In this document: piece after piece, positions 20,501 through 26,500 of the stretch
How the letters are laid out: each line of letters opens with the position of its first letter
How positions within the stretch are numbered: position 1 is the first letter of the stretch
NCBI RefSeq assembly: GCF_057098645.1
Contig: NZ_CM169472.1
DNA length: 64,000 bases
Reading direction: 5' to 3' (one strand)
Position numbers: made by a program

Positions 20501-23500
20501 GAAATTATCGGGGAAAGGACTGTACTCATGTTCTAACCTCCTCAGATTAGGCGCGACGACCTTTTTGCGCCTCTAGCCACCGCGCAACGGTTTCTTCAAT
20601 TGATTCTTTTTTCTCCTTCATTTCCTTAAGCATTTTCTCTTTGTCTTCTTTTGGGAAAGCCCTGAACGTCTGGATCAAATCTCGCTCTATAGGTTCTATA
20701 TTAAACGGAAGTTCGTTTTCCGATTGCTCCATCTCTGCGGGTAAAGCGACAACATTATCCTGCTGCAGTTCTTGGGGGTACATCCTTACAATTCGTAACA
20801 AGTCTGCCATATCTGGTCTAATTGACTCAGGCGGAACTTGTAGCAACCCAGCGAACTTGATAACAGCCTCTAGATTTAAAGGTGTCTGACCATTTAGATA
20901 ATGGCTTACTGCCCCTTGTGTCGAAAAACCCAGAATTTCTGCCGCACGCTCTTGGGTTAACCCAAGTTGAGTTTTTTTCGTCGTCCAGATTTCTTTCAGT
21001 CTCTGGGCGGCTTGCAGGTCGATCTCTGACAGGGGTTTTCTTTTCATACCTTCAATTCTAATAAGATTATTAATCTCTTTGAAATAGCGATGCTATTTAC
21101 TTTTAAAAATAACAATGTTATTAATGCTCATGGTCACATAACATGAGGTGAACAATGAATCTTGGAGAATATTTGCATCATTCCCGTATAACCCAGAAAG
21201 ATTTTGCTGAAATTGTTGGGGTAACCCAAGGGATGGTAAGCCATGTTATTACTGGACGGGCGAAACTTACGGGGGGGGAAAGTTTTACGCTGGTGTGAAG
21301 CAACAGGGTGGGTAGTGACCCCGCACGAGATTGATAGCAGTACTTACCCCAACCCAACCGATGGCATACCTGTTGACTATCAGGCTAACACACAACCCGC
21401 GCTGGGAGTTGATTCATGAAAATCAAGCATGAGCACATCCGCATGGCGATGAATGCCTGGGCATACCCTGATGGTGAGAAAGTTCCTGCAGCTGAAATAG
21501 CCCGGACTTATTTCGAACTGGGGATGACGTTCCCGGAACTGTACGACGACAGCCATCCGGAAGCCCTGGCTCGTAATACCCAGAAAAATTTCCGCTGGGT
21601 AGAGAAAGACACCCCTGATGCAGTTGAAAAAATTCAGGCGTTGTTACCAGCGATCGAAAAGGCAATGCCACCTTTGCTGGTGGCAAGAATGCGCAGCCAC
21701 AGTTCAGCTTATTTTCGGGAGCTGGTGGAGACGCGGGAGCGACTGGTGAGAGACGCTGATGATTTTGTCGCAGTGGCAATCGCCGGTTTCAATCAGATGA
21801 ACCGTGGTGGCCCGGCAGGAAATGCTGTGGCAGTGCATTGAGTGATAATAGCCATATCGAATCGCTTCCGGCAACTCGTGAGTAAAAAGATTCGGTATCA
21901 GAAGAGGTGAGTATGGCTAACGCCTGGCTCAGATTATGGCATGACATGCCAAATGACCCTAAGTGGCGAACAATTGCCAGGGTGTCAGGGCAGCCAATTG
22001 CAACAGTGATGGCAGTGTATATCCACCTCCTGGTGAGCGCGTCACGAAATGTCACGCGAGGTCACATTGATGTCACGACAGAAGATTTGGCAAGTGCGCT
22101 CGACGTGACAGAAGAGGTAATTGATTCAATTTTGCAGACGATGCAGGGGCGGGTACTTGATGGTGATTTAATCACTGGATGGGAAAAACGCCAGGTGCTT
22201 AAAGAGGACAACGGCAATATTTCGCAAACCGCAAAATCTCCTGCAGAGCGCAAGAGGGCGCAGCGAGAGAGGGAAAGAAAGCGGGAACAAAATGGCGATT
22301 GTCACGGCGCGTGGATTTGCCCCTATATTTCCAGACATCTGTTATCACTTAACCCATTACAAGCCCGCTGCCGCAGATATTCCCGTGGCGAGCGATAACC
22401 CAGCGCACTATGCGGATGCCATTCGTTATAATGCTCGAACGCCTCTGCAAGGTTCTTTGCTGCCGTTAACCCGTCTGGTTTGGGCATGATACTGATGTAG
22501 TCACGCTTTATCGTTTTCACGAAGCTCTCTGCTATTCCGTTACTCTCCGGACTCCGCACCGCCGTGTTCTTCGGTTCAAGTCCCAACATCCGGGCGAACT
22601 GGCGTGTTTCATTAGCCCGGTAGCATGAACCATTATCCGTCAGCCACTCCACTGGAGACGACGGAAGATCGTTGCCGAAGCGGCGTTCCACCGCTCCCAG
22701 CATGACGTCCTGTACTGTTTCACTGTTGAAGCCGCCGGTAGTCACCGCCCAGTGCAGTGCCTCACGATCACAGCAGTCCAGCGCGAACGTGACACGCAGT
22801 CTCTCTCCGTTATCACAGCAGAACTCGAACCCGTCAGAGCACCATCGCTGATTGCTTTCTTTCACGGCCACTCTGCCTGTATGTGCCCGTTTCGATGGCG
22901 GTACAGCAGGTTTTCGCTCAAGCAACAGCGCATTCTGGCGCATGATCCGGTAAACACGTTTGGCATTGATCGCAGGCATACCATCAAGTTCTGCCTGTCT
23001 GCGAAGCAGCGCCCATACCCGACGATAACCATACGTGGGCAGCTCTCCGATAACATGGTGTATACGGAGAAGCACATCCGTATCATCAGTGTGACGACTG
23101 CGGCGGCCATCCATCCAGTCATCGGTTCGTCTGAGAATGACGTGCAACTGCGCACGCGACACCCGGAGACAACGGCTGACTAAGCTTACTCCCCATCCCC
23201 GGGCAATAAGGGCGCGTGCGCTATCCACTTTTTTGCCCGTCCATATTCAACGGCTTCTTTGAGGAGTTCATTTTCCATCGTTTTCTTGCCGAGCAGGCGC
23301 TGGAGTTCTTTAATCTGCTTCATGGCGGCAGCAAGTTCAGAGGCAGGAACAACCTGTTCTCCGGCGGCCACAGCAGTAAGACTTCCTTCCTGGTATTGCT
23401 TACGCCAGAGAAATAACTGGCTGGCTGCTACACCATGTTGCCGGGCAACGAGGGAGACCGTCATCCCCGGTTCAAAGCTCTGCTGAACAATTGCGATCTT

Positions 23501-26500
23501 TTCCTGTGTGGTACGCCGTCTGCGTTTCTCCGGCCCTAAGACATCAATCATCTGTTCTCCAATGACTAGTCTAAAAACTAGTATTAAGACTATCACTTAT
23601 TTAAGTGATACTGGTTGTCTGGAGATTCAGGGGGCCAGTCTAGCGCGTCACGAAATGTCATGCACATGTCACGACGAGTCACGACAGATAAAGATACAGA
23701 TAAAGATACAGATCAAGAAGATCAAAACACTATGGTCCATGGCGTAAAAAACGCCACGAACCAGGCAGGGGATGTTCAGACCGTCAATCCTGGTCAGCCA
23801 GCAGGCACGACACCGGAAGCCGATTCAGCGTATGCGCTGAAAGCCGATTCGGGCGCTGTGCAGCAGGTGATGACCGCAAGGCCGAAGCAATCACACCAAC
23901 TGCAGCAGCCTGAAGCCGATTCCGCCATTCAGCGGGAAGCCGATCGGGTAGTCCCGGAAAACACCGGGCTGTCTGTGGGACGAGTGGATTATCCGGATGT
24001 GTTCGAACAGGTCTGGCGGGAGTACCCGTTGCGTGCCGGAGCAAACCCGAAGAAATCCGCATTCAGTGCCTGGAAGGCCAGATTGCGCGAGGGGGTGCCA
24101 CCAGAGACCATGCTGGATGGTGTGAGGCGTTACGCGAGATACCTGGCGGCGACCGGGAAAGCGGGAACGGAATTTGTTCAGCGAGCGACGACGTTTTTTG
24201 GGCCGGACCGGAATTTTGAAAACCCCTGGTTGCTCCCGGTAAGCGGCACGAACAACCAGCGTTGTGTGAATCATATTTCTGAACCGGATACCGAAATTCC
24301 GCCGGGATTCAGGGGGTGATGTGGCATGAAAAACATTGCGGCAGCCGGGGTTCTTGAACGTATTCGCAGACTTGCACCACCGGCGTCGGTTCCACCGTAC
24401 CGGACGGTGGAGGAGTGGCGGGAATGGCAACTTGCTGAAGGACGAAAACGCAGCGAGGAGATTAACCGCCAGAATCACCAGTTGCGGGTGGAAAAAATCC
24501 TGAATCGTTCGGGCATCCAGCCTCTGCACAGCAAATGCTCGTTTGCGAATTATCAGGTGCAGAACGACGGGCAAAAATACGCGCTGAGCCAGGCCAAATC
24601 CATAGCTGACGAACTGATGACCGGGTGCACGAATTTTGTGTTCAGCGGTAAAACCGGCACCGGGAAAAATCACCTTGCAGCGGCGATGGGTAACCGGCTG
24701 ATGGCGAAGGGGCGCAGCGTGATTATCGTCACCGTGTCTGATGTCATGAGCGTGTTGCATGACAGCTACGACAACGGCAAATCCGGGGAAAAATTTTTAC
24801 AGGAGCTTTGCAGTGTTGATTTGCTGGTCCTGGATGAAATAGGCGTTCAGCGGGAGACGAAAAACGAGCAGGTGGTATTACACCAGATAATTGATCGCCG
24901 GACAGCATCACTGTGCAGTGTCGGGATGTTAACAAACCTGAATCATGCCGCAATGAGTACGCTTCTTGGTGAGAGGATTATGGACCGCATGACCATGAAC
25001 GGTGGTCGATGGGTGACGTTTAACTGGGATAGCTGGCGTCCAAATGTCAGCAATATGAGGGTTGTGAAGTAATTTTGTCCGGAGGAAATTTTAATGGAAA
25101 CCGTATCTGACGCACTGAAAGCACTGAAAAAAGCCTCTTCACATGTGGTGGCAGCTCGCCTTGGAATCAGTCGTGAAGAGGCTGTCAACGAGCTGTGGGA
25201 ACTCAAAAGAAATGGCGTCGTTGATAAAACTGGTCACACCTGGTTTCTGGCTGGCGAAGGTGAATCCCGGGTAACCGAAGAGCGGCCAGTAAAATCTGAA
25301 GCACAGGATATGCTGACCGGGGAGGTCGAACAAAAAGTTACCGCAGACATGATGATTGAGTTTATCGGTCAGGATGGGGCTAAAACGTGTGAGGAACTGG
25401 CGGGTAAGTTCGGTGTCAGTACTCGCAAGGTTGCTTCCACGCTGGCGGTGGTAACCGCAACGGGGCGGCTGGCACGCGTTAATCAGAACGGTAAATTTCG
25501 TTACTGCATGCCGGGCGATAATTTACCAGCAGAGCCGAAAGCCGCGCTGGTAACGGAAAGTGATGGTAAGGCCTTTCCTCAGCCAGCAGGTGCTGCGTTA
25601 CCAGTCCGGGAAGCCGCAACACAGGAAGAAATTAAAACAGAAACTGTGGCGGACATTGTGCAGCCGTTGCCATCGTTTACCGAAACGCAAGCAGATGAGC
25701 TGATTTTTCCGTCCCTTCGCAGGGCAAACCTGGCGCTGCGCAGGGCGAAAAGTGATGTTCAGAAGTGGGAGCGAGTCTGCGCCGCGCTGCGGGAGCTGAA
25801 CAAGCACCGGGATATTGTTCGACAGATTACTGATTCTTCCCGCCGTGTTGTATCGGAAAAGTGATTGCCGGAGGCGCTTATGGCAAAAGTATTTACACAG
25901 GAAGAGCGGGAAAAAATTAAAGGGCAGGTTGTTGAGCTAGTACGCCGGAGTGGGCGCGAGACGTTACGGCAACTGGAAGCCAAGACAGGTGCGACAAGAT
26001 ATCTGATGAGCGTTCTTGCCAGAGAGCTGGTTGCCAGTGGCGATGTATACAACTCTGGTTACGGGTTATTCCCATCTGAACAGGCTCGTAAGGACTGGCA
26101 AAACGCCCGCAAAAAACTATCGAGGGCAAAACTGAAGAAACCGGTTGTGGTTGATCCTGACCTTATCTGGTCATTACCAGACGGAGAAATACGCCGCTAT
26201 GACAGGCAATTGAACATAATTTGTAGTGAGTGCCGTAACAGTGAAGTGATGCAGCGAGTTTTGATATTTTACACAGGAGTAATGATGGAATAGTGAAAAT
26301 AACATGAAACCTTTGGATTCTGGTGTTTCAGTGGATGGGAAAAGAGCAGATACATAGAAAATGAATAGCAATAATTCACAGTCTGGATGTTGTTTGTATG
26401 CTTATAAAATGATCCTAGTATGCATTGCCGGAGTTGAATCAGCTCCAATGAAGAAACTGAGAGGAGTATTTAGAAGATAGCTAAATGGATGTAATTATTA

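What the first reader, a model, noticed from the sequence alone, without database searches (positions are those of the whole stretch)
22307..23647. IS2 splits the phage replication initiator; the reading frame is continuous once the IS is removed
The 5' segment (21907-22311) reads directly into the IS2 end. The 3' segment resumes after the duplicated GCGCG. Removing IS2 and one TSD copy restores a single ORF of about 358 aa, so the insertion is recent with no secondary decay.
Basis: seen in the sequence. Interest (0 to 1): 0.5.

Follow-up and report, generated by a model that had tools for sequence, protein, structure and literature searches.

The report
IS2 insertion splitting prophage replication initiator
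An intact copy of the common E. coli jumping gene IS2 has recently landed in the replication-initiator gene of a lambda-like prophage, and probably in its replication origin, which is an ordinary way for a prophage to be disabled.

Summary
A complete 1331-bp IS2 lies at 22312-23642, with its transposase genes on the minus strand. It is flanked by a perfect 5-bp target duplication, GCGCG, at 22307-22311 and 23643-23647.

Removing IS2 and one GCGCG gives a 1077-nt ORF. That is 358 codons from GTG 21907, or 356 aa from ATG 21913, the start annotated in homologues. The restored sequence is 1077/1077 identical to an uninterrupted 'phage replisome organizer' gene in E. coli O145 RM9154-C1. It matches PHROG 3729 ('replication initiation protein') end to end.

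The same prophage next to yccA in strain C325 carries the empty site with a single GCGCG. Neither IS2 junction occurs in any of 5,426 complete E. coli genomes. The insertion is therefore recent and strain-specific.

These repeats are kept in phages that share the initiator's N-terminal domain and are absent from a phage that shares only its C-terminal domain. They are probably the origin iterons, so IS2 likely splits the origin as well as the protein.

The prophage also carries two other IS elements and a 391-bp deletion. Biologically this is ordinary, so interest is low.

The parts
22312..23642 (-). Complete IS2 (1331 bp). The IRR end is at 22312 and the IRL end at 23642. insC (orfA, 121 aa) starts 92 nt from the IRL end. 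insD (orfB, 301 aa) lies at 23228..22323. The A6G -1 frameshift site is present.
22307..22311 (.). Left copy of the 5-bp target-site duplication GCGCG.
   Evidence: Single copy in the empty-site genomes L001 and L004.
23643..23647 (.). Right copy of the 5-bp target-site duplication GCGCG.
21913..22311 (+). 5' segment of the replication-initiator (replisome organizer) gene, codons 1-133 from ATG 21913 (GTG 21907 is an alternative start). It encodes the N-terminal domain. As it stands, the ORF runs on into IS2 and stops at 22398, giving 161 aa with a 29-aa foreign tail.
23648..24319 (+). 3' segment of the same gene, codons 134-356 plus the stop. It encodes an acidic, disordered linker and the C-terminal helical domain, ending in a DnaT-like tail SEPDTEIPPGFRG.
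22041..22077 (+). Iteron cluster A. Four GTCAC(G/A) repeats with 10/10/11-nt spacing, inside the N-domain coding region.
22301..22306 (+). Iteron B1 (GTCACG). IS2 now separates it from the rest of cluster B.
23647..23683 (+). Iterons B2-B5 (GTCACG, GTCATG, GTCACG, GTCACG) with 10/11/10-nt spacing.
23684..23735 (+). A+T-rich stretch (67% AT against 46% for the whole gene). It holds about three copies of the 12-mer ACAGATAAAGAT, whose copy number varies between alleles. Putative DNA-unwinding part of the origin.
24326..25072 (+). DnaC-like helicase-loader gene (248 aa), immediately downstream. It is intact and likely subject to polarity from IS2.

Best explanation
A copy-out/paste-in transposition put one intact IS2 into a lambdoid prophage integrated next to yccA in an O145:H28-like E. 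coli chromosome. It duplicated the 5-bp target GCGCG.

The target lies at codon 133/134 of the phage's replication initiator. This is a 'replisome organizer' that plays the role of lambda O or SPP1 G38P. The target is also between the first and second repeats of the second GTCACG iteron cluster, which with the adjacent A+T-rich 12-mer array most likely forms the phage origin.

Consequences:
- Shown: the initiator ORF is cut into an N-terminal fragment (133 aa plus 29 IS2-encoded aa) and a 3' remnant of 223 codons.
- Shown: iteron B1 is moved 1,336 bp away from B2-B5.
- Inferred: no functional initiator is made.
- Inferred: the origin is impaired.
- Inferred: transcription from the early rightward promoter into the DnaC-like loader and later genes is reduced by polarity.
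- Inferred: the prophage therefore cannot replicate autonomously after induction.

The event is recent. Nothing else in or around the gene has changed, so precise excision would restore a wild-type allele.
For: IS2 anatomy and target duplication.

Restored gene:
- 100% identical to intact WP_112868454.1 'phage replisome organizer'.
- Flanks of 613 and 3,677 bp are also 100% identical.
- Empty site with one GCGCG in the same yccA-adjacent prophage of C325 and Z1323HEC0422.
- Junctions absent from 5,426 complete genomes, and the truncated product is not on record.

Family assignment:
- phrog_3729 full length, E=1e-254.
- Homologues 97-98% identical in isolated phages, annotated as replication protein.
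- DnaC-like loader next door, NF009043 at 509 bits.

Iterons:
- 7 of the 23 plus-strand GTCACG in the 64-kb window fall in this 1.07-kb gene. All are on one strand at 10-11-nt spacing.
- The two clusters keep their positions in Pseudomonas and Aeromonas phages that share only the N-domain (about 70% aa identity).
- They are absent from Shigella phage POCJ13, which shares only the C-domain.
Against: - No experiment shows that this protein binds GTCACG or that the region is an origin.
- Curated domain models do not recognise the protein. Pfam gives no hit, and TIGR01714 gives 15.4 bits against a 49.8 cut-off.
- The AlphaFold model of the N-domain is poor and Foldseek found nothing.
- Polarity and loss of replication are inferred, not measured.
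- Only the window is available, so an assembly error cannot be formally excluded. A misassembly would not create an exact target duplication, though.
Confidence: 0.9

Rival explanations
1. The two segments are naturally separate genes: a small DNA-binding protein and a separate helicase-loader adaptor. On this reading IS2 sits between them and does not disrupt a gene.
For: The two halves do behave as separately exchangeable modules:
- The N-domain (1-137) occurs with unrelated C-termini in Aeromonas and Pseudomonas phages.
- The C-domain (158-356) occurs with unrelated N-termini in Stx phages.
- PHROGs also holds half-length families, phrog_21423 and phrog_18526.
Against: In every close relative the two halves are one continuous ORF:
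- 1,646 complete genomes hold at least 80% of the restored gene in one place.
- The 90% cluster of 356-aa proteins has 5,786 members.
- Isolated phages carry the single gene.
- The restored sequence is base-for-base identical to such a gene.
Confidence: 0.01
2. The insertion is old and has been kept by selection. On this reading it is a domestication step that locks a useful prophage in place, or keeps the N-terminal fragment and iterons as a decoy that blocks replication of related incoming phages.
For: - The prophage shows other signs of decay: two more IS elements and a 391-bp deletion.
- The N-domain ORF and cluster A are left intact.
- In phage lambda, plasmid-borne ori iterons together with oop transcription silence replication of incoming rep-lambda phages (PMC3349717, abstract).
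Against: - There are zero substitutions in 5.4 kb around the site compared with an IS-free allele.
- The IS2 is intact and 99.9-100% identical to other copies.
- The junctions are absent from all 5,426 complete genomes, including the closest O145:H28 relatives.
- An old, selected allele should be shared by a clade.
Confidence: 0.05
3. The IS2 is an assembly or sequence-construction artefact and not a real insertion in the source genome.
For: No public complete genome or called protein carries the junction. IS elements are classic sites of misassembly.
Against: - The element is complete to the base.
- It is bounded by a 5-bp direct duplication of a sequence that is single-copy in the empty site.
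- That is the specific signature of IS2 transposition. Repeat collapse or contig misjoining does not produce it.
Confidence: 0.03

Closest known systems
IS2 (IS3 family) insertions that inactivate genes in E. coli and its phages
   Same: - 1331 bp.
- Imperfect terminal inverted repeats of about 42 nt.
- orfA and orfB with an A6G -1 frameshift.
- DDE/rve catalytic domain.
- 5-bp target duplication.
- 99.9-100% identical to annotated IS2 copies.
   Different: Nothing about the element itself differs. Only the insertion site is new to the collections searched.
Phage lambda O protein with ori-lambda inside the O gene (iterons plus an A+T-rich region between the N- and C-terminal domains)
   Same: - Gene position: after cI/cro-type genes and before the helicase-loading partner.
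- Two-domain protein with a disordered acidic linker.
- Direct repeats plus an A+T-rich stretch inside the coding sequence, at the domain boundary.
- Repeat specificity travels with the N-domain.
   Different: - No detectable sequence homology to lambda O (no Pfam hit).
- The repeats are 10-11-nt GTCACG units in two clusters 270 nt apart, not four 19-bp iterons.
- The partner is a DnaC-like AAA+ loader, not lambda P.
SPP1 G38P-type 'replisome organizer' (TIGR01714 phage_rep_org_N). Its origin oriL lies within its own gene (established knowledge; the SPP1 system is mentioned in PMC5737612).
   Same: - The RefSeq name 'phage replisome organizer'.
- A weak but full-length alignment to TIGR01714, residues 5-125 against profile positions 1-119 of 119.
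- Origin-like repeats inside the gene.
   Different: The score of 15.4 bits is far below the 49.8-bit cut-off. Membership is therefore not established by the curated model.
IS-disrupted defective prophages of enterohaemorrhagic E. coli (for example the O157 Sakai prophage pool, PMC2669165)
   Same: A lambdoid prophage in an EHEC-type chromosome that carries several IS elements and deletions. Here these are IS2, an IS21-family element, IS629 and a 391-bp deletion.
   Different: This particular hit is in the replication initiator and origin. It is so recent that the gene is otherwise wild type.
E. coli DnaT (primosomal protein I), encoded upstream of dnaC
   Same: - The last 24 residues (..NHISEPDTEIPPGFRG) align with the C-terminus of DnaT.
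- The gene lies directly upstream of a DnaC homologue, as in the dnaTC operon.
   Different: Only the tail is similar. NF002770 gives 18.2 bits against a 201-bit cut-off, so the protein is not a DnaT family member.

Membership tests
IS2 (IS3 family) | Length of about 1331 bp with imperfect terminal inverted repeats | tested here: met
   1331 bp. The ends align over about 42 nt with one indel.
IS2 (IS3 family) | Two overlapping ORFs (orfA with an HTH, orfB with a DDE/rve domain) and an A6G -1 frameshift site | tested here: met
   InsC is 121 aa (HTH_Tnp_1). InsD is 301 aa (rve, rve_3, HTH_21). AAAAAAG lies at IS2 position 409.
IS2 (IS3 family) | 5-bp target-site duplication | tested here: met
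   GCGCG on both sides, single copy in empty-site genomes.
IS2 (IS3 family) | Near-identity to reference IS2 copies | tested here: met
   100% identical to one record and 99.9% to many records annotated as IS2 family transposase.
Phage replication initiator / replisome organizer (phrog_3729; NCBI 'phage replisome organizer') | Full-length match to the family profile | tested here: met
   phrog_3729 matches 1-356 of 356 at E=1e-254. The restored gene is identical to WP_112868454.1.
Phage replication initiator / replisome organizer (phrog_3729; NCBI 'phage replisome organizer') | Curated N-terminal domain model (TIGR01714 / Pfam Phage_rep_org_N) above its cut-off | tested here: not met
   TIGR01714 gives 15.4 bits against a 49.8 cut-off. 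Pfam gives no hit at E<=0.01.
Phage replication initiator / replisome organizer (phrog_3729; NCBI 'phage replisome organizer') | Position in the early rightward operon, next to a helicase or helicase-loader gene | tested here: met
   The gene order is HTH repressor, cro-like gene, YdaT-like gene, initiator, DnaC-like loader.
Phage replication initiator / replisome organizer (phrog_3729; NCBI 'phage replisome organizer') | Cognate iterons and an A+T-rich region in or next to the gene | tested here: met
   There are 4 + 5 GTCAYR repeats at 10-11-nt spacing, then a stretch of 67% AT. They co-vary with the N-domain across phages.
Phage replication initiator / replisome organizer (phrog_3729; NCBI 'phage replisome organizer') | Demonstrated origin binding and helicase recruitment | not testable with these tools
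   Needs biochemistry or genetics.
Lambda O family (Pfam Phage_rep_O) | Sequence match to the O-protein N-terminal domain | tested here: not met
   No Pfam family at E<=0.01. The resemblance is in function and architecture only.
DnaT (primosomal protein I) | Match to NF002770 above its cut-off | tested here: not met
   18.2 bits against 201. Only residues 333-356 align.

The most novel reading that the evidence does not exclude
The most novel reading has three parts.

1. The GTCACG arrays are the real origin of a widespread but unstudied family of lambdoid replication modules. This family is found in E. coli, Shigella, Salmonella, Aeromonas and Pseudomonas phages. It has an unusual two-cluster architecture, with one cluster embedded in the DNA-binding domain's own coding sequence.

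2. The IS2-split allele is not merely dead. It leaves an expressible origin-binding N-fragment plus iterons, which could interfere with replication of incoming phages of the same specificity.

3. The allele could revert by precise IS excision. The IS-excision enhancer IEE is reported to act on copy-out/paste-in ISs (10.1101/2023.06.07.543989, abstract). That EHEC lineages often carry IEE is my own recollection and was not checked here.
Probability: 0.07. Interest if true: 0.45.

Novelty: already known. Interest (0 to 1): 0.15.

Why it matters
Practically, it marks this yccA-adjacent prophage as replication-defective in this strain, which matters for predicting inducibility and gene transfer from EHEC-type prophages.

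It also gives a clean natural 'knock-out versus wild type' pair with strains C325 and RM9154-C1.

The by-product is a concrete, testable prediction of the origin for a very common but uncharacterised replisome-organizer + DnaC-like replication module. The prediction is phased GTCACG iterons plus an A+T-rich 12-mer array. The intact initiator gene (at least 80% of it in one place) occurs in about 30% of complete E. coli genomes (1,646 of 5,426).

None of this is surprising to a specialist.

Tried and rejected
- **Pfam on the restored protein:** no family found.
- **PDB sequence search:** only the DnaT-like 24-residue tail matched, and weakly.
- **Structure prediction:** an AlphaFold2 model from a 22-sequence alignment gave mean pLDDT 51. 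Only residues 245-332 were confident.
- **Foldseek of that model against PDB:** nothing with E<3, so the structural route to the fold was dropped.
- **Flank similarity at other IS2 copies:** in the junction search, short similarity at IS2 copies in other genomes (H33, H39) raised the idea of a shared insertion hot spot. Inspection showed unrelated targets. One was an IS66/ATP-binding remnant. The other was a different lambdoid replication gene with TSD CTCGC.
- **Finding the source genome:** exact look-up of the truncated product (161 aa and 163 aa versions) found nothing on record.
- **Promoter and terminator scan of 21000-24500:** no more sites than in shuffled sequence, and no outward promoter from IS2 into the 3' segment.
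- **Literature searches:** none found a published origin for this initiator family or a report of this insertion.
- **Allele P0020:** I considered whether its 54-aa deletion is a scar of IS excision at this site. By eye, from the alignment, the junction looks like short CAC homology 3 nt beyond the TSD. I did not pursue it.
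Full report
**1. The observation**

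Reading 21700-24500 and slicing the window in a script shows a 1331-bp element at 22312-23642. Its ends are TGGATTTGCCCC... and ...GGGGGCCAGTCTA. They align as imperfect inverted repeats of about 42 nt with a one-base offset.

On the minus strand the element carries:
- a 121-aa ORF ([13 protein letters not shown]...; Pfam HTH_Tnp_1);
- an overlapping 301-aa ORF (Pfam rve, rve_3, HTH_21);
- an AAAAAAG slippery site between them.

The whole element is 100% identical to one record and 99.9% identical to many records annotated 'IS3-like element IS2 family transposase'. GCGCG lies immediately outside both ends, at 22307-22311 and 23643-23647. It is the only IS2 in the window.

**2. The reading frame**

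Segment 21907-22311 is exactly 135 codons. As the sequence stands, the ORF continues for 29 IS2-encoded codons to TAA at 22396-22398.

Joining 21907-22311 to 23648-24319 gives 1077 nt and a single ORF of 358 codons. RefSeq homologues start at the ATG that corresponds to 21913, which has GAGG 8 nt upstream. The likely product is therefore 356 aa.

**3. Are the two halves one gene?**

Yes.
- The restored 1077 nt match an uninterrupted CDS, 'phage replisome organizer' WP_112868454.1, in E. coli O145 RM9154-C1 at 100% identity.
- 1,646 of 5,426 complete E. coli genomes hold at least 80% of it in one place.
- PHROG 3729 ('replication initiation protein', profile length 356) aligns 1-356 to 1-356 at E=1e-254.
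- Full-length homologues of 97-98% identity occur in sequenced phages (Tritos, Evi, vB_EcoM-606R7 and others). They are annotated as replication protein O, replisome organiser or primosomal protein I.
- The 90%-identity cluster of 356-aa proteins has 5,786 member sequences.

**4. Empty site and age**

The chromosomal flank (yccS-helD-yccF-sxy) is 100% identical to O145:H28 strains. The prophage sits next to yccA.

In strains C325 and Z1323HEC0422 the same prophage occupies the same site. There the matches to the left and right flanks of IS2 overlap by exactly the five bases GCGCG.

Identity to relatives around the site:
- Against RM9154-C1, the 613 bp upstream and 3,677 bp downstream of the insertion are 100% identical.
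- Against C325, the 9.3 kb downstream differ by one substitution and one 12-nt repeat unit.

Neither 240-nt junction is present in any of the 5,426 complete genomes. The truncated product is not on record among called genes in public assemblies.

The insertion is therefore recent and, as far as these collections show, private to the source strain. The gene has suffered no secondary change.

**5. What the gene is and what IS2 hit**

Upstream of the gene lie:
- an HTH_3 repressor-like gene (20547-21047, minus strand);
- a small cro-like ORF;
- a YdaT-like gene (21416-21841).

Downstream lie:
- a DnaC-like AAA+ helicase loader (24326-25072; NF009043 at 509 bits, IstB_IS21, phrog_50);
- DUF1627 and DUF977 genes.

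This is the standard place for a lambdoid replication module.

The protein is modular:
- Residues 1-137 recur at about 70% identity in Aeromonas and Pseudomonas phages with unrelated C-termini.
- Residues 158-356 recur at about 65% identity in Stx phages POCJ13 and 75/02 with unrelated N-termini.
- The last 24 residues resemble the C-terminus of DnaT, whose gene also precedes dnaC.
- The AlphaFold2 model is confident only for a helical C-domain (245-332). It predicts 128-244 as disordered.

**6. Putative origin**

The restored gene holds two clusters of the hexamer GTCAC(G/A), all on the coding strand.
- Cluster A has four repeats at gene nt 129-160, with spacing 10/10/11.
- Cluster B has five repeats at nt 389-430, with spacing 10/10/11/10.
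- Cluster B is followed directly by about three copies of ACAGATAAAGAT, in a stretch of 67% A+T against 46% for the gene.

Seven of the 23 plus-strand GTCACG in the whole 64-kb window fall in this gene. The motif is read in all three frames (SR, VT, GH), so its conservation is at the DNA level.

Conservation across phages:
- The clusters keep their positions and spacing in phage Tritos, Pseudomonas phage phita81A and Aeromonas phage pAEv1818, which share the N-domain.
- They are absent from the initiator gene and its 3.6-kb surroundings in POCJ13, which shares only the C-domain.

Repeat specificity travelling with the N-terminal domain, plus an A+T-rich stretch at the domain boundary, is the arrangement known for lambda O/ori-lambda and SPP1 G38P/oriL (established knowledge). 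I therefore infer that these are the origin iterons. This is an inference and has not been shown.

The IS2 target GCGCG lies between iterons B1 and B2, and its last G is the first base of B2. IS2 therefore leaves cluster A and B1 on the left. It moves B2-B5 and the A+T-rich array 1,336 bp away to the right.

**7. Mechanism and consequences**

Shown:
- truncation of the initiator after residue 133;
- loss of the linker, the C-domain and the DnaT-like tail from that product;
- physical splitting of the repeat array.

Inferred:
- No functional initiator is made.
- The origin is impaired.
- Expression of the DnaC-like loader and distal genes is reduced by polarity. No promoter-like site reads out of IS2 into the 3' segment.
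- The prophage therefore cannot amplify its DNA after induction.

The 3' remnant has no convincing ribosome-binding site, so it is probably not translated.

**8. Context of decay**

Relative to C325, the window's prophage also has:
- a 391-bp, frame-breaking deletion in the exonuclease gene at 17526/17527;
- an IS21-family element at about 33671-35801 (IstA/IstB);
- an IS629-type element at 39628-40937, in a different place from the one in C325.

'No secondary decay' is therefore true of the gene but not of the prophage.

**9. Comparison with what is known, and novelty**

IS2, its 5-bp duplication, and IS-mediated inactivation of prophage genes in EHEC-type strains are all well known (for example PMC2669165 for the O157 defective prophage pool).

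The gene family is annotated in RefSeq and PHROGs. However, curated domain models do not reach threshold: TIGR01714 gives 15.4 bits against 49.8, and Pfam gives no hit. I found no paper describing its origin.

The finding is real, correctly interpreted and ordinary. The only mildly new element is the origin prediction.

**10. Verdict**

- Observation: confirmed.
- Interpretation: supported.
- Novelty: already known.
- Interest: 0.15.

Noticed in passing
window 17524-17527 (exonuclease gene, minus strand, ORF 15860-17821): A 391-bp frame-breaking deletion relative to the intact 811-aa exonuclease gene of strains C325 and RM9154-C1. The breakpoint has 3-bp microhomology (GAT).
   Followed up: partly
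window about 33671-35801: An IS21-family element (IstA 33772-34944, IstB 34941-35741; ends TGTTAGCGCC.../...GGCGTTGACA) that is absent from strain C325. It is inserted just upstream of, or in the 5' end of, the SASA-family (nanS-p-like) esterase gene at 35790-37478.
   Followed up: partly
window 39628-40937: A 1310-bp IS629/IS1203-type element with a 3-bp duplication (GGC), between the lysozyme and Rz-like lysis genes. In C325 an identical IS sits at a different place in the prophage (L004 21835-23144).
   Followed up: partly
window 23684-23719; L001 3442-3477: The 12-nt unit ACAGATAAAGAT (encoding TDKD) varies in copy number between alleles of the initiator gene. Gene versions of 1077, 1089 and 1113 nt were seen among O145 strains.
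   Followed up: partly
L003 3523-4853 (E. coli 503829, NZ_CP025869.1): An independent IS2 insertion in a different lambdoid replication gene, in the same relative orientation, with TSD CTCGC. In-silico excision also restores a single ORF there. The number of cases is too small to call IS2 targeting of replication genes.
   Followed up: partly
window 24269-24316 (last 16 codons of the initiator gene): The C-terminal tail ..NHISEPDTEIPPGFRG closely resembles the C-terminus of E. coli DnaT (PDB 6aep, 2ru8, 9zbt). The gene precedes a dnaC homologue, as dnaT precedes dnaC. This suggests a shared docking motif.
   Followed up: partly
protein P0020 (302 aa, E. coli), alignment A1 columns about 228-288: An allele of the initiator that lacks 54 aa starting right after ..CHGAS. 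It is missing iterons B3-B5 and the A+T-rich array. The junction looks like short CAC homology, which would make it another way of losing the putative origin.
   Followed up: no
window 20200-21841; L004 10242-12035: The immunity region carries a RelE/RelB-type toxin-antitoxin pair next to the repressor gene (annotated in C325). It also has a YdaT-like 'toxin' family gene directly upstream of the initiator. dicB and a DUF1482 gene lie further left.
   Followed up: no
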